From the NCBI GenBank assembly GCA_031406795.1, contig JANOHV010000076.1, forward strand, positions 1-54,644: a stretch of 54,644 nt of DNA. Reading direction: 5' to 3'. This document shows positions 16,751 to 51,668 of this stretch, in pieces. The notes under the pieces are model-generated. The model was not told where the DNA came from, made no database searches, and saw only the letters and a program-made list of their open reading frames with translations. Made by a program: the position numbers and the translations under genes. Numbering within the stretch: the stretch's first letter is position 1; every line of letters begins with the position of its first letter. Source of the stretch: Candidatus Rokuibacteriota bacterium. Lineage in GTDB: Bacteria; JAUVQV01; DATDCY01.

Positions 16751-17617
16751 CTAGAACTTGAAGTCGAACGTCCTGGCGTTGATGCCCGCCTTTTCGAAAA
16801 TCTCGAACGTGTGGGCGAAATCCGCGCTCGTCGTCGCGATGAAGGCCTTGATCCCGAAGAGCTTCTTCACTTCCATGGCCTGGGCGCCGTTGTCGGACTC
16901 GATCTTGAGCAGCAGGCGCCTGATCTCCTCGCCGTGCTTGTCCGCGGCGGCGTTCGACATGATCAGCGTGTTGTTCGGGTTCTCGCCCTTGTCCTCGCCC
17001 ACGAGGGCGAGGCCCGGGAACTTGGCCGGGTCCCAGACCATGTTCTTCACGACGGCGTAATCGGCCGCGCCGCTCTGCACCGCGTTGATCGCGATCAGAT
17101 GGCTCGCCGCCGGGACCGGGGTGAAGACGTTCTCCGGCTTCTCGCCGGCGGGCAGCAAGCCGCGCACGAACGCCTCGCCCGAGGAGGCCAGCAGCGTGTA
17201 GGCGACCTTCTTGCCGCGGAAATCGCCGATCCCCGCGAACTGCTTGGTCCCCTCTTTCGCGATGATGAACGCCTTGTAGGTCGTCGCGCCGTTGGCGAGC
17301 ACCGGCCGCGCGATCGGCCTGGCGACTTCCTTCTTGATGAAGATCCCGGCGACGAACGAGCCCGAGAACATCCCCTCGACCTCGCCGCCCTGGAAGAGTT
17401 TGGCGGCTTCAGGGTAGTCCTTGGCCACGCGCAGCTGAATGTCGGCGATCCCGGGACTGCCGGCGCTGAGGTAGGCGGCGAGCGCGGCGTACTTCGGGCC
17501 TTCCTTCTTCGGGTCCTCGGAGGACATGATCACGAAATGCAGGGTGTCGGCGGCCAGCGTGGTCGACGCCAGGCCCAAGGTGAGAGCGAGGCAGAGCAGT
17601 GAGACAACCCTCTTCAT
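16751..17617 (-). CDS. PhnD/SsuA-like periplasmic substrate-binding protein (no ABC permease nearby)
   Basis: Signal peptide; [18 protein letters not shown] and [15 protein letters not shown] patterns. Confidence 0.75.
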
Positions 17618-19718: not shown

Positions 19719-20858
19719 TTAGTGCGCCTCGTCGTGGGACATGATGGGCAGGTACAGCACCGCCGCGCGGTAGGCAAACACGGCGAGCGAGACGAGCCCG
19801 ACGCTCAGCGCGATCTCGCTCAGCGCCGGGAAGTACCCGCCGGTGGCGCCGGTGGCCTGCGTCAGAAACGCCACGTTGAACCGGTTCAGGATCACGCCCG
19901 AGATCACGAGCACCTGCGACCAGAGGATCCCGTCCACGGACTTGCGCACCCCGGGGCTGAAGAGCAGGAGCATCGGGACGATGCCGAGGCCGACGACCTC
20001 GATCAGGAAGAGCGCGCTCGCCTTCCCCGACGAGGCGATCAAACCGAGGTTGCCGCGCGCCGCCAGGTCGATGAACCGCGCCCCGAGGTAGACCGCGAGC
20101 GCGATTGCGGTGCCGCGGGCCAGACCGTCGAGCAGCGGCAGCGGCTGCTCCATCTTGAAAGTCCGGTGGCTGACGATTGTCTCGAACGAGACCATCGCCA
20201 GGCCGACCGCGAACGCGCTGAGGTAGAACCAGTAGTTCATCAGCGGCGACCACCAGAGGTGCGAGAGCTTGTGCGGCATCAGCAGGAAGAGCCCGCCGAG
20301 CGAGTTCTGGTGCCCGAAGGAGAGGATGATGCCCGCGATGACCAGCGGCCAGAGCACCACCGGGTGGCGCATGAATTTCGCCGCCCCCGGCATTCCCAGC
20401 CCCTCGAAGAGGTTCGGGGAGAACTCCAGGAAGAGCACCGTCAGGTAGAGCATCACGCAGATCGCGACCTCGAAGAGCATCGAGTGCGGCTGCCACATGA
20501 TCATCGCGTGCCAGATCGTCCAGGGCTTGCCGATGTCGAGGAAGACCCCGGCGGTTACCAGGGCATAGCCGAGGAACGCCGTCAGAATCGCCGGACGGAC
20601 CACCGGCTTGTACTTTTTCCAGCCAAGGACGTAGGCCGCGAGCGTCGTCGTGAACCCCCCGGCGGCCAGCGCGACCCCGATCATGACGTCGAACGTGATC
20701 CACAGCCCCCAGGGGTACTCGTCGGAGAGGTTCGTGGTCGCACTCAGGCCGAACACGAGCCGGTAGATGGCCACCCCGATCCCGAGGATCGCGAGGAGCA
20801 GCGCGAGCGTACCGCCCCCGGACAACAGCTTCGCATCCCGCTTCCGTTCTCCGGCCAT
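19719..20858 (-). CDS. NrfD/HybB-family integral membrane subunit of formate dehydrogenase
   Basis: TNLSDEYPWGLWI.FD, AAGGF, DIGKPW, FEVAIC, HQNSLG, NRFNV; about 10 hydrophobic segments. Confidence 0.93.
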   Translation of the reverse strand: MAGERKRDAKLLSGGGTLALLLAILGIGVAIYRLVFGLSATTNLSDEYPWGLWITFDVMIGVALAAGGFTTTLAAYVLGWKKYKPVVRPAILTAFLGYALVTAGVFLDIGKPWTIWHAMIMWQPHSMLFEVAICVMLYLTVLFLEFSPNLFEGLGMPGAAKFMRHPVVLWPLVIAGIILSFGHQNSLGGLFLLMPHKLSHLWWSPLMNYWFYLSAFAVGLAMVSFETIVSHRTFKMEQPLPLLDGLARGTAIALAVYLGARFIDLAARGNLGLIASSGKASALFLIEVVGLGIVPMLLLFSPGVRKSVDGILWSQVLVISGVILNRFNVAFLTQATGATGGYFPALSEIALSVGLVSLAVFAYRAAVLYLPIMSHDEAH

Positions 20859-20859
20859 G

Positions 20860-21624
20860 CTACTCCCCTCCCTTCGGCCCGCGGTTGCGGACCCACGCCA
20901 GACCGCCGAGCACCGCCACGAAGCCCACGATCTCCATCGGGATCTTCGAGAGCGATGCCCACGTGTTGGGCGGCAGCGCCTGCATCGGCACCTTCGTGTT
21001 GAACCCCAGTTCGGCGAACGGCCGGTCGGCGATGTAGATCCACGCCGTGCCTCCGGCTTCGTTCTCGCCGTAGATGTGCTGCACGTACTTGCCGCCGGTC
21101 AGCCGCTTCTTCGCGACGGCCAGCAGCTCCTCGGCCTCCCCGAAGAGCAGCGCGCCGGTCGGGCAGGTCTTGACGCAGGCCGGCGGCAGGCCGTCCGCCT
21201 GCCGCTCGGCGCAGAAGGTGCACTTCCTGACCCACGGCTGCTGCGCCTTGCTCCACTCGTACTTCGGGATCTCGAAGGGGCAGGCCACCATGCAATAGCG
21301 GCAGCCGATGCACTTGTCGAAATCGTACGACACCGCGCCGCTCTCGGTCTTGACCAGGGCCCCGACCGGACAGGCCGAGGCGCACGCCGGGTCCTTGCAG
21401 TGCAGGCACTGCTCCTTGACGAAGTTCCAGACCGGCATGCCGCCCGCCTCGCCCTCCTGGAAGCGGATCTTGGTGTAGCAGGTCTCGCTCATCGACGGCG
21501 GGTTCTCCAACGACCCCGAAATGACGGTCCTGACGACCGACATCTCGTTCCAGGACTTGCACGCCACCTGGCAGCCGCGGCAGCCGATGCAGCGCGTCAG
21601 ATCGACCAGTACGCTCTTTGGCAT
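20860..21624 (-). CDS. fdnH: Formate dehydrogenase iron-sulfur subunit (4x[4Fe-4S], C-terminal TM anchor)
   Basis: CIGCRGCQVAC, CLHCKDPACASAC, CIGCRYCMVAC, KCTFC...PACVKTC. Confidence 0.93.
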   Translation of the reverse strand: MPKSVLVDLTRCIGCRGCQVACKSWNEMSVVRTVISGSLENPPSMSETCYTKIRFQEGEAGGMPVWNFVKEQCLHCKDPACASACPVGALVKTESGAVSYDFDKCIGCRYCMVACPFEIPKYEWSKAQQPWVRKCTFCAERQADGLPPACVKTCPTGALLFGEAEELLAVAKKRLTGGKYVQHIYGENEAGGTAWIYIADRPFAELGFNTKVPMQALPPNTWASLSKIPMEIVGFVAVLGGLAWVRNRGPKGGE

Positions 21625-21637
21625 CTCGCTGCCCCCC

Positions 21638-24600
21638 CTAAACCTTCTCGACGTTGCACATGAAGGCCTTCGTCTCGGGAATCATCGTGTTGGCGTCGCC
21701 GATGGTCGGCGTCAGCAGGTTGGTGGTGTCGCCGCCGCTGCCGTCCGCCGGCATGTGCCAGCCGAAGCACCACGGCATGCCGACCTGGTGCACGGTCGCG
21801 CCCATCGCCTTGAACGGCCTGAACCGCCCGGTCACGACGGCCCTGCACATCACCTCGCCGCGGGCCGAGGAGACCTTGAGCTTGTCGCCGCTCTTGATCC
21901 CCTTCTCGGCCGCCAGTTCGCGGCTGAGCTCGAGGAAGTTGGACGGCACGGCCTCGAGCAGCCAGGGCGTGTTGCGCGTCATCACCCCGGTCTGCCAGTG
22001 CTCGGTCACGCGGTAGGTCGTGGCGACGAACGGGAAGCGCGTGCTGCAGGACTCGAAGACGTCCTCGGCGTTGCTCTTGGACGCGTCGGTGAAGAAGAGC
22101 TTCGCGGTCGGGTTGATCCGGTGGGACTTCGACATCGGGTTTTCCTGGAACGGGCACTCGAGCGGCTCGTAGTGCTCGGGGAACGGCCCGTCGGCGAGCG
22201 AGTCGTTGCCGAAGATGTTCGCGACGCCGTTCTTCTTCATGATGAACGGCAGGCGCCCGTCAGGGTTGACCTTCCCGTCGGGTGTCTTCAGCGGCGGGTA
22301 GCCGCCGTCGACGACGTCGCCGGCCCACTTGAACAGCGGCGCCCCGGTGGTCGGGTTCTTCTTCTGCTCCTTGGTGGCCGGGTCCACGTCCGGCACCCAC
22401 TTGAGCAGCGCCCGCTTGGCGTCCCAGGGCTTGCCGTACTCGTCGACCGAGGCGCGGTTATAGACGATGCGGCGGTTCACCGGCCAGCTCCACGACCAGT
22501 TCGGGTACAGCCCGAGACCGGTCGGATCCTCCTTGCCGCGGCGGGCCATCCGGTTGCCGGTCTTCGGGTCGAGCGCCACGCCGTCCTTCAGCGCCGGGCC
22601 GCCGTAGGAGCCGCAGTAGATCCACGCGCCGCAGGAGGTCGTGCCGTCGGCCTGCAGCGTCGGGAACGAGGCGACCAGCTGCCCCTTCTTCCAGGTGCTG
22701 GTCACGGCCTTGGTCTTCGGGTCGAGGATCTCCTTGTCGGCGAGCCAGTAGCCGTTGATCTCGCGCGCCACGACGTGCATGTCCACCTTCGCGCCGTAGT
22801 TCCAGGTGGTCTTGAGGACCGGGTCCGGGAAGGCCCCGCCCTCCTTCGCGTACAGCTCGCGGACCTTCAACGCCAGTTCGTTGATGATCTCGCCGTCGGG
22901 GCGCGCCTCCCCGGGGGCCTCGACCGCCTTGTAGCGCCACTGGGCCCAGCGCCCCGAGTTCGAGATGCTCCCCTCCTTCTCGACCGACGAGGCGCAGGGG
23001 AGCAGGAAAACCTCGGTCTTCACGTCGGCCGGGATCACGCCCGGGCCGCGCCAGAACGAGCCGGTCTCGTTGTCGAAGAGGTTGACGTTGACCATCCAGT
23101 CCAGCTTCGCGAGCGCCTTGCGGACCTTGCCGGCGTTCGCCCCGGAGCAGGCCGGGTTCTGCCCCCAGGCGAAGAAGCCCTGGTATGTGCCCTTGAGCAT
23201 CTCGTTGAACAGCACGAGCCAGGAGGCGTTCTGCCCGTCGTTGAGCTTCGGCAGCCACTGGTAGCCGAACTCGTTGTCCGGCGTCGCGTTGTCGCCGAAG
23301 ATCGCCTTGAGGTAGCTGACGAAGTATTTGTTCGAGTTCGAGGGCCAGTTCGCGCTCTGCGGCTCTTTGATCTCGGCCGCGTACCCCTTCACGTAGGCCT
23401 CGAGCGTGTCCTTCGCGGCGACGGGAACCGGCAGGTAGCTCGGCAGGATGTGGAAGAGCAGCCCGTAGTCGGTCGAGCCCTGCACGTTGCTCTCGCCGCG
23501 CAGCGCGTTGATGCCGCCGCCGGCCATGCCCATGTTGCCCAGCAGCTGCTGGATGATCGACATCGCGAGTATGTTCTGGGTCCCGACCGTGTGCTGCGTC
23601 CAGCCCATCGCGTACATCGAGGTGCCGACCTTGTCCGGCGCGTGCGTCGAGGAGTAGGTCTCGTAGACCTTCAGCAGGTCCGCCTTCGGCGTGCCGGTGA
23701 TCGAGGACACGGTGTCCAGGTCGTAGCGGCTGTAGTGCTTCTTCAGCAGCTGCATGACGCACATCGGGTGCTGGAACGTCGGGTCTTTCTTGATCACCCC
23801 GTCCGCCCCGACCTCGAACGCCCAGGCCGCCTTGTCGTACTTGCGCGCCGCCGCATCGTAGCCGGAGAAGATGCCGTCGAGCTCGCCGGGCATCTTGAAG
23901 TCCTTGTTCACGATGAACGACGCGTTCGTGTAGAGCCGGACGTAGTCCTTCTGGATCAGGTCCTTCTGCAGGATGTAGTTGATCATCCCGCCGAGGAAGG
24001 GGATGTCGGAGCCCGAGCGCAGCGACGCGTAGACGTCCGCCATCTTCGAGGTCTTCGTGTAGCGCGGGTCCACGTGGATCAGCTTCGCGCCCTTATCCTT
24101 GGCCTCCATTACCCACTTGAAGGAGATCGGATGGTTTTCCGCCGCGTTGCTCCCCATGATCAGGATGACGTCGGCGTTCTTCAGGTCGATCCAGTGGTTC
24201 GTCATGCACCCGCGACCGTACGACTCTGCCAGAGCCGCCACCGTTGCGGAGTGTCATATCCTGGCCTGGTGTTCGATGGCGACCAGGCCGAGCGAACGCA
24301 GCCACTTCTGGTAGAGGTGGCACTCCTCGTTGTCCAGCGCCGCGGAGCCGAGGCTCGCGAGCGCGTTGGTGCGGTTCACCGTCTGCCCCTTGTCGTTCTT
24401 CTCGACGAACGAGGCGTCGCGGGCCTTCTTGACGCGCTTGGCGATCTCGTCGAGCGCCCACGACCACTCGACGTCCTTCCACTCGGACGCGCCCGGGGCG
24501 CGGTACCTGGGCTTCATCAGGCGCGTCGGGTTGTTGACCAGGCCCATCACCGAGGCGCCCTTGGGGCAGAGGGACCCCTGGTTGATCGGGTGCTCCGGAT

Positions 24601-24808
24601 CGCCCTCGATCTGGATGACCTTGCCGTCCTTCTGGTAGACGAGCATGCCGCAGCCGACCGCGCAGTACGGGCAGATGCTGGTCGTCTTCGTCGCACCGTT
24701 GAGACGGTTCTCGCGTTCGAGAGCCTGCGCCTCTCCCGCGCCGCCGACCGCACCCGCCACCGCGGTGGCGCCGGTCAGTTTGAGGAAGTCTCTCCTCGAT
24801 ACACCCAT
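21638..24808 (-). CDS. fdnG: Selenocysteine-containing Mo/W formate dehydrogenase alpha subunit (Sec185), Tat-exported, 1056 aa
   Basis: Two ORFs joined by an in-frame TGA at 24254-24256 give EHQARI-U-HSATV. Tat motif SRRDFLK, CPYCAVGC..LCPKG, RGESNVQG, PEHYEP, TTYRVTEHW. Confidence 0.96.
24218..24256 (-). promoter_or_regulatory. Sec UGA codon and SECIS-like hairpin of FDH
   Basis: TGA is followed after 12-15 nt by a GCGGCTCT-GGC-AGAGTCGT hairpin. Confidence 0.75.
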
Positions 24809-24849
24809 TGCTGCACCTCCCCTTCCCGCTTCCCGCGGGCACCGCGCAG

Positions 24850-24890
24850 AAAAAAAAGCCGCAGCGGGCGCGCGACTCCCGCTGCGGCTT
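24850..24890 (-). terminator. Intrinsic terminator inside the FDH 5' leader (riboswitch expression platform)
   Basis: AAGCCGCAGCGGG-9 nt loop-CCCGCTGCGGC followed by T8, about 40 nt before the fdnG start. Confidence 0.85.
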
Positions 24891-24974
24891 CCTTTGCAAA
24901 CTGGGCAGGACCGGCGATCGCTCCCCGGACCCTATCGTCCCGCGCGGCCACGAGGGTCGGGCGGAATCGGAAGC
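24887..24974 (-). ncRNA. Moco/Tuco (molybdenum/tungsten cofactor) riboswitch-like aptamer, P3-less variant
   Basis: P1 GCTTCC/GGAAGC; P2 TTCCGC/GCGGGA; AGGG junction; P4 capped by a GCGA (GNRA) loop; 3' signature CCTGC-CCAGTTT-GCAAAGG. Located in the leader of a Mo/W enzyme. Confidence 0.75.
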
Positions 24975-24991
24975 TCGAATTTTCTGCACAT

Positions 24992-25020
24992 CTTGTAGAA
25001 GGGCGCCGCGGAACTGTCAA
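24992..25020 (-). promoter_or_regulatory. Putative sigma70 promoter of the FDH operon
   Basis: Perfect TTGACA, 17 bp spacer, TACAAG; predicted start is about 10 nt upstream of the aptamer. Confidence 0.55.
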
Positions 25021-25080
25021 GCCAAACAATCTATTCCTGACAAGCACTTACCCGTATATACAGATAATGGTTATGAGGGT

Positions 25081-27471
25081 TCACCATCCCGCTACGAGCC
25101 ATCGGGCGCGCTCGATCCAGGTGCGATGAGTTGAAAGCTCCCGCCACGTGCGGACCTCCCAGCCGCGACCGACGCTGCGGAGCAGGATGGCGCCATCGCG
25201 GTCGGTGCGGAAGACGTGACCGACGCTCGCGAGCGCCTGCACGGCGCCCGGTTTCGGATGTCCGTACGTATTTCTCCCGACGGAAATCGCCGACACCTCG
25301 GGCCGCAGCTGCTCGGCGAGTTGCCGGCACGTTTCAGGGGAACCGCCGTGGTGGGGCGCCTGCAGCGCGATGTGCGCGGGCAGCTTTGCGGCAGCAGCGG
25401 CAACTCCCCCGCTCAGCAGCGCTCCGGCGTCCCCGGTGAGGACAACGCCGGTGCTCCGCCAGGACAGCAGCAGCGCGAGCGAATAATCGTTCACGTCCGG
25501 AATCCCCGCGGGGCCGCCGGCCACCGACGGGGGGTTCAGGACCAGGACCTCGACCCCGCCCCCCAGCGTCCTCGTCATCCCGCGAACCAGCGGCTGCGCA
25601 CCCTCACCGCGCCAGGTTTCGCCGACTGCCATACCCCGGCGCACCGCCCCGACCCCGCCGTCATGATCCGGGTGCGGGTGGCTGATCACCAGCGTTTCGA
25701 GTTTCGTCACCCCCAGACGCCGCAGCGCCGGGACCACGATTCGCGCCCCGGCGTCGTAGTCCCGCCAGCGCGGACCGGCATCATAGAGAAGGGCGCCGCC
25801 CGCGGGCAGGAGCACGGCGGTGGACAGACCCTGCCCGACATCGAGCACCGCCACGAGCACCCGCTGCCCGTGTGTGGCGATCGACCATCCGGCGGCCGCA
25901 ATAGTCGCCGCGGCACAACCGCCGACGCACCACTCCTGCAAGCGGCGCGTCGCCCGGGGCAGCAGCGTGCCCGCCAGGACCAGCAGGCAGAGCGTCAACA
26001 GCAACGGCGGTCGCGCAGTCTCGAGGATCGCCCATGAGGGTCGGGCGAACCACGCGGCGATCTCCACCAGACACCCCGACGACCAGAGCGCCACCGCGGC
26101 GAAATGCGAACCGGCGGGTGCCCAACACGCAGTCGCCACGATGGCCAGCCAACCGGCCGGCAGCACGACGAAGCCGGTGAACGGCACGGCAATCAGGTTG
26201 GCCAGAGGCCCGACGAGAGACACCTGCTGGAAATGAAAGGCGACCAGCGGGGCGGTCACCGCGGAGGCGGCGAGCGAAATGATCATCAGCGAGCGGGAGG
26301 CGCCATAGAGCCGCCGCACCCTTCCCTCAGCAGCGGCTGTCGGCGCCCGCACCAGCTGCACCCGGGAGGCCACGAGCATCAGCGCGGCCACCGCCGCGAA
26401 CGAGAGTTGAAAGGACGCCGAGAACAGCGAGCGCGGATCCCAGGCGACGATGGCGAGCGCAGCCAGCGCCCAAGCGTCCGCCGCGTCGACGCGCCTCCAG
26501 AGCACCACGGCGACCAGCCCGGCGGCGCTCGATATCACCGCTCGCCCGACGGGGATCTGACTCCCCGAGAAGAGCATGAAGAACCAGAGCGAGGGCAAGG
26601 TGAGCAGCGCGGCGACCGGTTGGACCGGGAATCGCAGCGCCAGCGGCTCCAGCAGCGAGACTCCCCGCCGCAACAGCACGAACACGAGCGCCGCGAGAAA
26701 GCCGACGTTCATGCCGGAGATCGCCAGCAGGTGGGTCAGCCCGGAGCGCAGGAAGTCCTGCTGGATCTGCGCTGGGATTCCCGCGCGCTCCCCGGTCGTC
26801 AACGAATTGAGAATCTGCGCCGCCGGCCCGGGGTGCGCTTTCCAGAAGCCGTCCGCGGCGGCGCGCCAACGCAGCACCGCGGAGGCCGGACCACGCCCCG
26901 GGTCATTCCCGTTGCGCCTGATCCAGGCCGCGGAGGGCACGATGAGCCTCGCCGCGTAACGCCTGCCGCGCGTCGAGATCGGTCCCGGAAACCACCCGAG
27001 ATTGCGGTCGCCGCGGATCAGCCGCACCTTGCCCCGCGCCGTGAGCAGATCGCCGACGGCGTACGCCGCGCCTCCGCCGACGACGATCTGGAGCGGCAAT
27101 TCCAGGTGGCTGGTCATCCCTTGCCGGCGCAGAATCGGGTCTTCAAGGTGGAGTACCGTCTCGCCGTCGCGAAACTCCGCCGGCCGTCCGACTCGCCCGC
27201 AGGCAACCGCGTCGCCCTCGACGAGGGAGGGCGCCCCGGCGTAGAGCGGGGCAAGATCACTCTGGAGGCGGAAGACGCCGACGACCGCGAAGGCCGCCAG
27301 GGCCAGCCTCCTCCCGGCGGCGAGAGACCCCGCTGCCCAACTCGCCCCCCCGAGCGCGAGAGTCGCCGCGGCCGCCCAGCCCCAGGCCGCAGGCTCCTGC
27401 GGCAGCCAGGCCCCGAGGGCGACGCCGACCACGAACGCGAGCGACGCCGCAAGCACGGGCCGGCCGAACAT
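25081..27471 (-). CDS. comEC: DNA internalization competence protein ComEC/Rec2
   Basis: SGLTHLLAISGMNV, SFQLSF, LDVGQG, ISHPHPDH, LTGD, PHHGGS, YGHP, RTDRDG. Confidence 0.96.
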   Translation of the reverse strand: MFGRPVLAASLAFVVGVALGAWLPQEPAAWGWAAAATLALGGASWAAGSLAAGRRLALAAFAVVGVFRLQSDLAPLYAGAPSLVEGDAVACGRVGRPAEFRDGETVLHLEDPILRRQGMTSHLELPLQIVVGGGAAYAVGDLLTARGKVRLIRGDRNLGWFPGPISTRGRRYAARLIVPSAAWIRRNGNDPGRGPASAVLRWRAAADGFWKAHPGPAAQILNSLTTGERAGIPAQIQQDFLRSGLTHLLAISGMNVGFLAALVFVLLRRGVSLLEPLALRFPVQPVAALLTLPSLWFFMLFSGSQIPVGRAVISSAAGLVAVVLWRRVDAADAWALAALAIVAWDPRSLFSASFQLSFAAVAALMLVASRVQLVRAPTAAAEGRVRRLYGASRSLMIISLAASAVTAPLVAFHFQQVSLVGPLANLIAVPFTGFVVLPAGWLAIVATACWAPAGSHFAAVALWSSGCLVEIAAWFARPSWAILETARPPLLLTLCLLVLAGTLLPRATRRLQEWCVGGCAAATIAAAGWSIATHGQRVLVAVLDVGQGLSTAVLLPAGGALLYDAGPRWRDYDAGARIVVPALRRLGVTKLETLVISHPHPDHDGGVGAVRRGMAVGETWRGEGAQPLVRGMTRTLGGGVEVLVLNPPSVAGGPAGIPDVNDYSLALLLSWRSTGVVLTGDAGALLSGGVAAAAAKLPAHIALQAPHHGGSPETCRQLAEQLRPEVSAISVGRNTYGHPKPGAVQALASVGHVFRTDRDGAILLRSVGRGWEVRTWRELSTHRTWIERARWLVAGW

Positions 27472-51591: not shown

Positions 51592-51668
<77 letters not shown>

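What the first reader, a model, noticed from the sequence alone, without database searches (positions are those of the whole stretch)
24850..25020. Moco/Tuco riboswitch-like RNA overlapping a terminator in the FDH leader: possible cofactor-activated ON switch
Seen: a TTGACA promoter, then an 88-nt structure (P1 GCUUCC/GGAAGC, P2 UUCCGC/GCGGGA, AGGG, GNRA-capped P4, CCU-GC-CCAGUUU-GC-AAAGG), then a strong U8 terminator before the fdnG RBS. Known: the Moco RNA motif ends in CCU-CC-N7-GG-AAAGG in the E. coli moaA leader (recalled), so the C-G to G-C swap here is compensatory. Motif members lacking P3 are associated with tungsten-cofactor genes. The 3' strand of P1 (AAGC, 24887-24890) is also the base of the terminator stem. 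Inference: ligand-stabilised P1 weakens termination, so FDH is made only when cofactor is present, opposite to the OFF logic of moaA, and the enzyme is probably a W-Se FDH. The overlap is only 4 nt, so the polarity is uncertain.
Basis: partly seen in the sequence, partly recalled or inferred. Interest (0 to 1): 0.78.

Follow-up and report, generated by a model that had tools for sequence, protein, structure and literature searches.

The report
Cofactor riboswitch gating formate dehydrogenase
The leader of this bacterium's selenium-containing formate dehydrogenase operon holds a molybdenum/tungsten-cofactor riboswitch of a known class, wired to a terminator so that it probably lets the enzyme genes be transcribed only when the cofactor is available.

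Summary
A conserved promoter (25020-24992) is followed by an 88-nt aptamer (24974-24887), a 13-bp hairpin plus U8 (24890-24850), and then a Tat/selenocysteine fdnG.

The aptamer is a P3-less member of the Moco/Tuco(Wco) riboswitch family, RF01055. Rfam scores it 28.1 bits, below its cut-off of 36. A model built from 55 other P3-less copies scores it 67.3 bits. It is the only hit in the 4.1-Mb genome. Orthologous FDH leaders pass Rfam's cut-off.

ON polarity is inferred, not shown.
- Before the terminator is made, the lowest-energy fold is the aptamer.
- Afterwards the terminator wins by about 4 kcal/mol.
- No antiterminator exists.
- P1 and the terminator share AAGC.

Across 94 aptamers of this subtype, the terminator overlaps the P1 3' strand in 46 of 59 enzyme-gene leaders (AOR, 4Fe-4S, FdnG). 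It does so in only 1 of 15 transport/biosynthesis/CMD leaders, which use RBS-in-aptamer or antiterminator designs instead.

Tungsten use by this FDH is only indirectly supported. I found no ON-type Moco/Wco switch in print. Earlier notes of this scan reached the same reading on other genomes.

Verdict: a real member of a known family with a probably new (ON) platform variant, of moderate interest.

The parts
24992..25020 (-). Promoter: -35 TTGACA (25020-25015), 17-nt spacer, -10-like TACAAG (24997-24992). The inferred transcription start is near 24985.
   Evidence: Sequence. CTTGAC and ACAA are invariant in 11 of 11 orthologous leaders at fixed spacing, with variable flanks. The consensus scan did not call it. 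RNA contigs of relatives give no cover beyond about 24975-25001, which is weak evidence.
24887..24974 (-). Aptamer of the P3-less Moco/Tuco(Wco) riboswitch. P1 is 24974-24969 with 24892-24887. P2 is 24966-24938. The CGAUAGGG junction is 24937-24930. P4 is 24929-24910 with a GCGA loop. CCU is followed by P5 (GC/GC) at 24909-24896, then AAA at 24895-24893.
   Evidence: RF01055 scores 28.1 bits over model positions 1-135 with the P3 positions deleted. Model R1 scores 67.3 bits, E 1.1e-16. Covariation is shown. The aptamer-only transcript folds into this structure as its lowest-energy fold.
24850..24890 (-). Intrinsic terminator: a 13-bp stem (5' arm 24890-24878, loop 24877-24869, 3' arm 24868-24856) and a U8 run (24857-24850). 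The first 4 nt of the 5' arm (AAGC, 24890-24887) are also the last 4 nt of the P1 3' strand.
   Evidence: The terminator scan is. The hairpin energy is -28.3 kcal/mol, or -19.1 without AAGC/GCUU. It is conserved in 11 leaders of the lineage, and 4 of its 17 pairs show compensatory changes.
24809..24849 (-). Spacer between terminator and start codon, holding the Shine-Dalgarno GGAGG (24820-24816). A small hairpin (CCCGC GGGAA GCGGG) carries a second GGAAGC.
   Evidence: Sequence. The hairpin is conserved in part of the lineage only.
21638..24808 (-). fdnG-type formate dehydrogenase alpha subunit, 1056 aa, with a Tat signal and selenocysteine (TGA) at codon 185 (24256-24254).
   Evidence: Translation. 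Pfam finds Molybdop_Fe4S4, Molybdopterin, Molydop_binding and TAT_signal. TIGR01553 scores 1379.9 bits against a cut-off of 814.2. It is the only FdnG over the cut-off in the genome, with one TGA inside the match.
20860..21624 (-). 4Fe-4S electron-transfer subunit (HybA/HmcB/FDH-beta-like).
   Evidence: Pfam Fer4_11. NCBIfam matches HmcB, HybA and FDH-beta, all below their cut-offs.
19719..20858 (-). NrfD/HybB-like integral membrane subunit.
   Evidence: Pfam NrfD. NCBIfam matches HmcC and HybB, below their cut-offs.

Best explanation
The 5' leader of the fdnG operon is a transcriptional riboswitch of the Moco RNA family (RF01055), of the subclass that lacks P3 and has been linked to the tungsten cofactor.

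Transcription starts near 24985. The 88-nt aptamer (24974-24887) folds first.
- Without ligand, the nascent terminator hairpin zips down through AAGC. It displaces four of the six P1 pairs, reaches the U8 run, and stops transcription about 40 nt before the start codon.
- With the pterin cofactor bound (tungsten cofactor more likely than molybdenum cofactor), P1 is held. The hairpin stops four pairs short, leaving GC unpaired between stem and U run. Termination is weakened, so fdnG, the Fe-S subunit gene and the membrane subunit gene are transcribed.

The switch would therefore be ON with cofactor, and the selenoprotein apo-enzyme would be made only when it can be matured.

What is shown: the aptamer identity, the terminator, their overlap, the lack of an antiterminator, and conservation of this design in orthologous and unrelated enzyme-gene leaders.

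What is inferred: ligand identity, polarity in vivo, and the size of the effect.
For: Aptamer
- RF01055 gives a full-length match of 28.1 bits.
- Model R1, built from 55 other P3-less copies without the window or its three close relatives, gives 67.3 bits. It is the only hit in the window and in the genome.
- On 60 copies, 87.3% of cells are paired against 69.2% in shuffles. The covariation score is 0.583 against 0.232 (0 of 500 shuffles reach it), and at most 0.227 when the partners are slid.
- Orthologous FDH leaders score 37.6, 34.2 and 39.3 bits. 17 of 20 further FDH-linked copies pass Rfam's cut-off.

Link to FDH
- An FdnG N-terminus follows the aptamer in L008, L009, L010 and L004.
- It also follows in 26 of 34 metagenome copies that end in GCAAAGGAAGC. 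The other 8 have at most 208 nt of sequence left after the aptamer.

Polarity
- The aptamer-only transcript folds as the aptamer.
- In the full leader the terminator pairs have probability 0.95 or more, except the outermost A-U at 0.64. The P1 pairs have probability at most 0.016.
- Holding P1 costs +4.3 kcal/mol.
- Blocking the terminator 5' arm costs +14.9 kcal/mol and reveals no competing antiterminator.

Terminator conservation
- It is conserved in 11 leaders of the lineage, always starting inside the P1 3' strand, and 4 of its 17 pairs show compensatory changes.

Class-wide pattern
- The terminator overlaps the P1 3' strand in 46 of 59 leaders of AOR, 4Fe-4S or FdnG genes, and in 1 of 15 leaders of CMD, transport or biosynthesis genes.
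- In 5 of the 6 transport/biosynthesis leaders the start codon lies 3-6 nt after P1.
- CMD leaders have a separate terminator whose 5' arm is complementary to the P1 3' strand.

Sequence specificity of the overlap
- In native leaders, 3.63 of the 4 variable P1 3' nucleotides pair with the base of the terminator 3' arm (all four in 45 of 62).
- In 620 aptamer/platform chimeras the mean is 2.0 (all four in 63).

Weak support
- Metatranscriptome contigs of relatives bridge the terminator (24696-24960 and 24765-24899).
Against: - The overlap is only 4 nt (two A-U and two G-C pairs). With P1 held, a 9-bp G+C-rich stem (-19.1 kcal/mol) remains 2 nt from a U8 run and may still terminate appreciably.
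- FDH leaders in other lineages overlap by 8-9 nt, so this lineage has the weakest version of the design.
- L009 has a degenerate U run. The order-level relatives (L010, L166, L168) have no terminator at all.
- The only published expression data I saw for terminator-type Tuco riboswitches show OFF behaviour. In Eubacterium limosum, fetABC1 and focA went up when tungsten was limited (PMC11725836, passages). Their structures are in supplements that I could not open.
- Rfam's gathering score is not reached by the window copy.
- The comparative set was collected with a pattern taken from the window's own core motifs, and its members are related to each other, so the counts overstate independence.
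- No ligand binding, 3'-end mapping or reporter data exist.
Confidence: 0.65

Rival explanations
1. The aptamer is real, but the terminator is not controlled by it. The 4-nt overlap would be too small to matter, so the hairpin acts as a constitutive, partly leaky attenuator (or as the comEC terminator). The aptamer would then act in another way, such as on mRNA stability or translation, or be a relic.
For: With P1 enforced, a 9-bp stem of -19.1 kcal/mol still stands 2 nt from the U8 run. Order-level relatives keep the aptamer without any terminator (L010, L166, L168). No other terminator follows comEC in 24500-25400.
Against: The terminator 5' boundary lies inside the P1 3' strand in all 11 leaders of the lineage, although the upper stem varies. 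The same overlap, co-varying with P1, is seen in 62 leaders. The energy gap between the two states is small (2.6-4.4 kcal/mol), as expected of a poised switch. The aptamer core is fully conserved.
Confidence: 0.2
2. It is an OFF switch like E. coli moaA: cofactor binding promotes termination or blocks translation of fdnG.
For: The only experimentally tested Moco riboswitch is OFF (PMC2408646, sections 5 and 8, passages). Terminator-type Tuco riboswitches of E. limosum behaved as OFF (PMC11725836, passages).
Against: No antiterminator exists. The ligand-free fold already has the complete terminator, and blocking it costs 14.9 kcal/mol, so ligand binding has nothing to switch off. The Shine-Dalgarno lies 67 nt beyond P1 and is not part of the aptamer. 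OFF-type copies of the same subtype look different: they have either the RBS inside AAAGGAGG or a separate terminator with an antiterminator.
Confidence: 0.1
3. The resemblance to RF01055 is chance in G+C-rich DNA, and the element is only a promoter plus a terminator.
For: The Rfam score is below the gathering threshold. The z-score of the fold is modest at -2.54.
Against: The independent model scores 67.3 bits with a unique hit in 4.1 Mb. Orthologous leaders exceed the Rfam cut-off. Compensatory changes occur within the genus and across 60 copies.
Confidence: 0.02

Closest known systems
Moco RNA motif / molybdenum-tungsten cofactor riboswitch, Rfam RF01055, P3-lacking ('Tuco'/'Wco') subclass (Regulski et al. 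2008, PMC2408646; sections 5 and 11 read)
   Same: It has P1, P2, P4 and P5 around a multi-stem junction. The CCGA, AGGG and CCU...AAAGG junction nucleotides are conserved. P4 carries a GNRA loop, here GCGA with no receptor in P2, matching the paper's remark that GCAA-loop copies lack the receptor. It lies in the 5' leader of a gene for a cofactor-using enzyme, followed by an intrinsic terminator.
   Different: The window copy scores 28.1 bits, below the cut-off of 36. The first P5 pair is G-C, not C-G. The gene controlled is a Sec-containing FdnG-type FDH. The word 'formate' occurs only in the reference list of the 2008 main text, and I could not see its supplements or Table 1 contents. The platform reads as ON, whereas the paper's tested case (E. 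coli moaA) is OFF.
E. coli moaA Moco riboswitch
   Same: Same aptamer family, and the same presumed kind of ligand (metal-bound pterin).
   Different: moaA has P3, holds the ribosome-binding site inside P1, and represses a biosynthesis operon (PMC2408646, passages). Here there is no P3, the platform is a terminator, an enzyme operon is controlled, and the predicted polarity is the opposite.
pbuE (ydhL) adenine riboswitch and other ON switches in which the aptamer itself is the antiterminator (Mandal and Breaker 2004, seen only as a citation in the reference list of PMC9481103; the mechanism is recalled)
   Same: The 3' strand of P1 doubles as part of the terminator 5' arm. There is no separate antiterminator, and ligand binding is expected to disrupt the terminator.
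   Different: The aptamer family and ligand are unrelated. The overlap here is 4 nt, far less than I recall for pbuE.
Tuco riboswitches of Eubacterium limosum (PMC11725836, passages)
   Same: These are P3-less RF01055 copies in leaders of W-enzyme (WOR1), transporter and other operons, some of them with terminators.
   Different: There, FDH has no riboswitch. The terminator-type copies (fetABC1, focA) rose under tungsten limitation, which is OFF behaviour. Their structures are in supplements that I could not read.

Membership tests
Moco RNA motif (RF01055) | Score at or above Rfam's gathering threshold (36 bits) | tested here: not met
   The window copy scores 28.1 bits and is not listed at the gathering threshold. 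Orthologous and related FDH leaders do pass: 37.6 and 39.3 bits, and 17 of 20 loci at 37.4-48.1 bits. The three misses are the window's closest relatives.
Moco RNA motif (RF01055) | P1-P2-P4-P5 helices around a multi-stem junction, full-length match | tested here: met
   The Rfam alignment covers model positions 1-135 with only the P3 hairpin deleted. The R1 alignment covers positions 1-87.
Moco RNA motif (RF01055) | Conserved junction nucleotides (CCGA after P1, AGGG before P4, CCU-P5-AAAGG before the P1 3' strand) | tested here: met
   All are present. The first P5 pair is G-C in place of C-G, which is a standard pair.
Moco RNA motif (RF01055) | Helices supported by covariation | tested here: met
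   Both-side changes are seen in 4 of 6 P1 pairs, 5 of 5 P2a pairs and 7 of 8 P4 pairs. The covariation score is 0.583 against 0.232 in shuffles (0 of 500 reach it). GAUAGGG, CCUGCC and GCAAAGG are invariant by construction of the search pattern and do not count as evidence.
Moco RNA motif (RF01055) | 5' leader of a gene of Mo/W cofactor synthesis, transport or use | tested here: met
   It lies 78 nt upstream of fdnG.
Moco RNA motif (RF01055) | Binds the cofactor or responds to it | not testable with these tools
   No binding or expression data are available.
P3-lacking ('Tuco'/'Wco') subclass | No P3 hairpin between P2 and AGGG | tested here: met
   Only CGAU lies between P2 and AGGG.
P3-lacking ('Tuco'/'Wco') subclass | Association with tungsten metabolism | tested here: inconclusive
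   Of the 94 aptamers of the subtype, 29 precede AOR-family genes. A further 17 precede a 4Fe-4S gene that is followed by an AOR gene. The genome has one AOR gene and a TupA-like gene (220.5 bits against a cut-off of 400), but also ModA. The metal of this FDH is unknown.
Transcriptional ON riboswitch with the aptamer acting as antiterminator | Intrinsic terminator whose 5' arm shares nucleotides with the aptamer's closing helix, and no separate antiterminator | tested here: met
   AAGC (24890-24887) is shared. Blocking the 5' arm costs 14.9 kcal/mol and no alternative partner appears.
Transcriptional ON riboswitch with the aptamer acting as antiterminator | Ligand raises read-through | not testable with these tools
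   RNA contigs of relatives bridge the terminator, but they cannot show ligand dependence.

The most novel reading that the evidence does not exclude
The P3-less GAUAGGG...CCUGCC...GCAAAGG form of the Moco family is a tungsten-cofactor sensor that cells wire in two directions according to gene function.
- It is ON, with the aptamer acting as antiterminator, for apo-enzyme operons (AOR/WOR and Sec-FDH).
- It is OFF, through RBS-in-aptamer or a separate antiterminator, for transport, biosynthesis and CMD-family genes.

In this genome its single copy makes synthesis of the only FdnG-type selenoprotein FDH conditional on cofactor supply. That would be a maturation checkpoint at the RNA level which, as far as my searches reach, has not been described for this riboswitch class.
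Probability: 0.5. Interest if true: 0.62.

Novelty: new variant of a known kind. Interest (0 to 1): 0.5.

Why it matters
Metal-dependent formate dehydrogenases are costly selenoproteins that are useless without their pterin cofactor. How bacteria match apo-enzyme synthesis to Mo/W cofactor supply is known mainly from protein regulators.

An RNA switch that turns FDH and AOR operons on when cofactor is present would add a direct checkpoint. It would give the Moco/Wco class a second polarity. It would also offer a genomic marker for tungsten-dependent isoenzymes and a natural cofactor-inducible part for expressing W/Mo enzymes.

On the practical side, Rfam's threshold misses the high-G+C copies of this lineage (the window and 3 of 20 related loci), so standard annotation leaves this operon's control unexplained.

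Tried and rejected
1. My own idea that the P2 3' strand (GCCGCGCGGG) acts as an antiterminator by pairing with the terminator 3' arm. The complementarity is not kept in L008, by inspection of the sequences. Blocking the terminator 5' arm yields no such structure.

2. A second platform classifier that took the most stable structure enclosing the P1 3' strand. It also counted antiterminator hairpins and large enclosing folds, so it did not discriminate, and I did not use it.

3. First energetics script. It had wrong coordinates and a mis-registered constraint string, and was replaced.

4. Consensus promoter scan. It found no site, so the promoter rests on conservation.

5. Sequencing runs. Only assembled contigs of relatives were served (85-99% alike). 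They cannot show starts, ends or levels, so the absence of cover beyond about 24975 is no more than a weak hint.

6. Literature searches for an ON-type Moco/Wco riboswitch or an FDH-linked one. Passages were read in PMC2408646, PMC1950547, PMC11725836, PMC11477304, PMC3766115, PMC7653027, PMC9481103, PMC9971707, PMC5317091, PMC13390414 and bioRxiv 2024.10.15.618519. None states it. Supplements were closed and subscription papers are not held.

7. A search for more copies in the genome that might control moa, tup or AOR genes. None was found with RF01055 or with R1.

8. Earlier scan notes on this genome or on this sequence. There were none.

Full report
What is there. The feature lies on the minus strand. 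Read 5' to 3', the elements are:
- a TTGACA hexamer (25020-25015), a 17-nt spacer and TACAAG (24997-24992);
- an 88-nt structured RNA (24974-24887);
- a 13-bp G+C-rich hairpin (24890-24856) running into eight U (24857-24850);
- a 41-nt spacer holding GGAGG (24820-24816);
- the ATG (24808) of a 1056-codon gene.

That gene has a twin-arginine signal, the Fe4S4, molybdopterin and dinucleotide-binding domains, and an in-frame TGA at codon 185. It matches the FDH-N alpha equivalog TIGR01553 at 1379.9 bits against a cut-off of 814.2. It is the only such gene over the cut-off in the genome, and the match reads through one TGA. Genes for a 4Fe-4S subunit and an NrfD/HybB-like membrane subunit follow it. 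comEC ends upstream at 25081.

Is the RNA a Moco-family aptamer?

Rfam's default scan of the window lists only a tRNA. With permissive thresholds, RF01055 matches 24984-24873 end to end at 28.1 bits (cut-off 36), E 1.1e-4. Only the P3 hairpin is deleted, and CCGA, AGGG and CCU-P5-AAAGG are in place. The first P5 pair is G-C where the consensus has C-G, a standard pair. The genome-wide E-value is 2.3e-4, and there is no other candidate in the genome.

Relatives settle the matter.
- In two genomes of the same genus and one of the same order, the same element scores 37.6, 34.2 and 39.3 bits. Each is followed by an FdnG orthologue.
- A same-class genome has a P3-less copy with the consensus CC/GG form of P5 before its FdnG (67.2 bits).

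The regex matches in these loci, in the relatives' loci and in the window gave 95 parsed aptamers. I dropped one chance match inside a coding region (L016), which left 94, the window and its relatives included.

On an alignment of the 60 short ones:
- 87.3% of cells are paired, against 69.2% in shuffles;
- the covariation score is 0.583 against 0.232 (0 of 500 shuffles reach it), and at most 0.227 when the partners are slid;
- both-side changes occur in 4 of 6 P1 pairs, 5 of 5 P2a pairs and 7 of 8 P4 pairs.

The three core motifs are invariant by construction and carry no weight here.

A covariance model built from 55 of these copies, leaving out the window and its three close relatives (and L113, which aligned badly), scores the window at 67.3 bits, E about 1e-16. 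It is the only hit in the 54.6-kb window and in the 4.1-Mb genome.

A second pattern that ends in the window's own P1 3' strand found 34 metagenome stretches.
- An FdnG N-terminus follows in 26 of them. The other 8 have at most 208 nt left after the aptamer.
- Of 20 FDH-linked loci given to Rfam (18 of these and 2 from the first set), 17 pass the gathering score. The three misses are the window's nearest relatives.

So this is a genuine, slightly sub-threshold member of a known family. Its link to Sec-FDH genes recurs in several lineages.

Promoter. The consensus scan calls nothing, because the -10 lacks the final T. In 11 leaders of the lineage, however, CTTGAC and the ACAA of the -10 are invariant at fixed spacing, while the 20 nt between the -10 and P1 vary freely. 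Metatranscriptome contigs of relatives cover the leader up to 24960-24975 and not beyond. That is only a weak hint, because contigs cannot show ends.

How it most likely works. I folded the leader from the inferred start.
- Up to the end of P1, the lowest-energy structure is the aptamer itself (-34.8 kcal/mol).
- Once the terminator is included, its pairs have probability 0.95 or more (the outermost A-U 0.64), and the P1 pairs have at most 0.016.
- Enforcing P1, or the whole aptamer, costs 4.3-4.4 kcal/mol. It leaves a 9-bp stem with GCUU unpaired in front of the remaining U's. The hairpin falls from -28.3 to -19.1 kcal/mol.
- Forbidding the terminator 5' arm costs 14.9 kcal/mol and uncovers no alternative partner for the 3' arm.

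There is thus no antiterminator. The ligand-free state is 'terminate', so the only thing a ligand-stabilised P1 can do to this terminator is weaken it. That fixes the polarity as ON, provided the aptamer acts through the terminator at all.

The gap of a few kcal/mol is what a poised switch would need. The same figure is 2.6-2.7 for the window and L008 when counted from P1.

My understanding is that the bottom pairs of a terminator stem and their adjacency to the U run are the critical part of intrinsic termination. That is recalled knowledge and comes from no call. The size of the effect with a 2-nt GC spacer therefore remains uncertain.

Comparative support. In 11 leaders of the window's lineage the terminator is kept. 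Four of its 17 pairs show compensatory changes, and its 5' arm always begins inside the P1 3' strand.

FDH leaders of other lineages have the same design in stronger form. Their 5' arm is AAAGGAAGCC..., covering the whole P1 3' strand with an overlap of 8-9 nt (L068, L077, L088, L145, L161, L164 and others). In all, 26 of 35 copies including the window have a terminator overlapping P1 by 2-8 nt. Of the other nine:
- six have the same hairpin with a poorer U tail;
- one is cut off by the end of its contig;
- one has no terminator;
- one was mis-called by a later T run.

Across the 94 aptamers I scored the first hairpin-plus-U-run after the aptamer and the first downstream gene. The terminator overlaps the P1 3' strand as follows.
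- AOR-family leaders: 20 of 29.
- 4Fe-4S-protein leaders: 21 of 22. In 17 of these 22 an AOR gene comes next.
- FdnG leaders: 5 of 8.
- Together: 46 of 59 enzyme-gene leaders.

Inspection of the AOR misses shows the same overlapping hairpin with a weak U tail in most of them.

By contrast, only 1 of 15 leaders of other function scored as overlapping, and that one (L106) is a T run inside the loop of a separate terminator.
- In 5 of 6 transport/biosynthesis leaders, the start codon lies 3-6 nt after P1, so the Shine-Dalgarno is the aptamer's own AAAGGAGG. That is the moaA-like OFF design. The genes are a ModA/WtpA-like binding protein, MoaA, two TonB receptors and a periplasmic binding protein. 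The sixth leader, before a ThiF/MoeB-like gene (L011), has its start codon 59 nt after P1 and fits neither design.
- The nine CMD-family leaders of Ignavibacteria and Kapabacteria have a separate terminator whose 5' arm is complementary to the P1 3' strand. That is a classical OFF antiterminator.

The overlap is sequence-specific. In native leaders, 3.63 of the 4 variable P1 3' nucleotides pair with the base of the terminator 3' arm (all four in 45 of 62). In 620 chimeras of one locus's aptamer with another's platform, the mean is 2.0 (all four in 63).

Three caveats apply.
- The set was gathered with motifs taken from the window.
- Its members are related to each other.
- The 62 leaders were chosen by the same folding rule.

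The counts therefore describe a pattern and are not a statistical test.

Against the ON reading.
- The overlap in this lineage is the smallest seen.
- L009's U run is degenerate, and the order-level relatives have no terminator.
- The only expression data in print that I could find for terminator-type Tuco riboswitches show OFF behaviour. In E. limosum, fetABC1 and focA rose under tungsten limitation (PMC11725836, passages). Whether those leaders are of the antiterminator type is in supplements that I could not open.

Tungsten or molybdenum? Regulski et al. tie P3-less copies to tungsten metabolism (PMC2408646, section 11). In my set, 46 of 94 copies lead AOR-family operons, and I take AOR-family enzymes to be tungsten enzymes from established knowledge. 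That makes a tungsten-pterin ligand the likelier one, and it indirectly suggests a W-FDH. The genome has one AOR gene with no riboswitch, a TupA-like gene (220.5 bits, below the cut-off of 400) and a ModA (169.3 bits). Sequence cannot decide the metal of this enzyme.

Comparison with what is known, and novelty. The aptamer belongs to RF01055, P3-less subclass, and that part is known. What I did not find in print is either a Moco/Wco riboswitch read as an ON switch or its link to FDH genes. This rests on searches and on passages of eleven papers. In the 2008 main text, 'formate' occurs only in the reference list. Supplements and subscription journals were not searchable, so the claim is limited to that reach.

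Earlier notes of this scan on other genomes describe P3-less Moco-type riboswitches before Sec-FDH operons and also suspect ON logic. They are unchecked AI notes and not independent evidence. They do show that the arrangement recurs.

Verdict. The riboswitch identity is close to certain. ON polarity is likely (about 0.65) but unmeasured. Tungsten is plausible but open. This is a known family with a probably new platform variant, and the interest is moderate.

Noticed in passing
window 25034-25060 (minus strand), upstream of the -35: A semi-conserved element lies about 15-40 nt upstream of the -35 in the lineage's FDH promoters. It reads TATACATGTAAGT in several relatives and tatatacgggtaagtg followed by cttgtcaggaa in the window. 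The core TACATGTA is palindromic, so it may be a regulator binding site.
   Followed up: partly
window 24824-24839 (minus strand): A small hairpin (CCCGC GGGAA GCGGG) sits between the terminator and the Shine-Dalgarno. It carries a second GGAAGC that could pair with the P1 5' strand. It is kept in L008, L139, L165 and L170 but not in L009, L141, L148 or L172. Its role is unknown.
   Followed up: partly
L033, L041, L072, L075, L091, L092, L094, L101, L106 (Ignavibacteria/Kapabacteria and others): A ~104-aa carboxymuconolactone-decarboxylase-family (CMD/AhpD-like) gene is the first gene behind P3-less riboswitches of the GAAA-loop/receptor type. These have a separate terminator and antiterminator (OFF design). 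A link between this protein family and Mo/W cofactor metabolism is not something I know of.
   Followed up: partly
L010, L166, L168, L157 (order-level relatives): The same aptamer precedes an FdnG orthologue, but with a leader of about 200 nt and no intrinsic terminator. A long-range hairpin still starts inside the P1 3' strand, so the platform there works in some other way.
   Followed up: no
own genome, G000:C42:51654-52394 (+) (L174): A second molybdopterin oxidoreductase reading frame with one in-frame TGA (TIGR01553 140.9 bits, below the cut-off) may be another selenoprotein. No riboswitch hit lies near it.
   Followed up: no
own genome, G000:C198:41051-41665 (+): The genome's single AOR-family gene (660-codon frame) has no Moco-family aptamer, although AOR operons are the commonest partners of this aptamer subtype elsewhere.
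   Followed up: partly
L139, L165, L170 and the window: Rfam's RF01055 gathering score misses the high-G+C copies of this one lineage (3 of 20 loci tested, plus the window). Their orthologues elsewhere pass. This is a sensitivity gap for annotation.
   Followed up: yes
window 16751-17617 (minus strand): A periplasmic binding protein of the phosphonate-binding family (Pfam PF12974) lies 2 kb beyond the FDH operon. It has weak NCBIfam matches to phosphonate and putative selenate binding proteins, all far below their cut-offs. Its substrate is unknown.
   Followed up: partly
window 51592-51665 (+): A tRNA gene (Rfam RF00005, 70.9 bits) is the only Rfam family reaching its gathering score in the window.
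   Followed up: no
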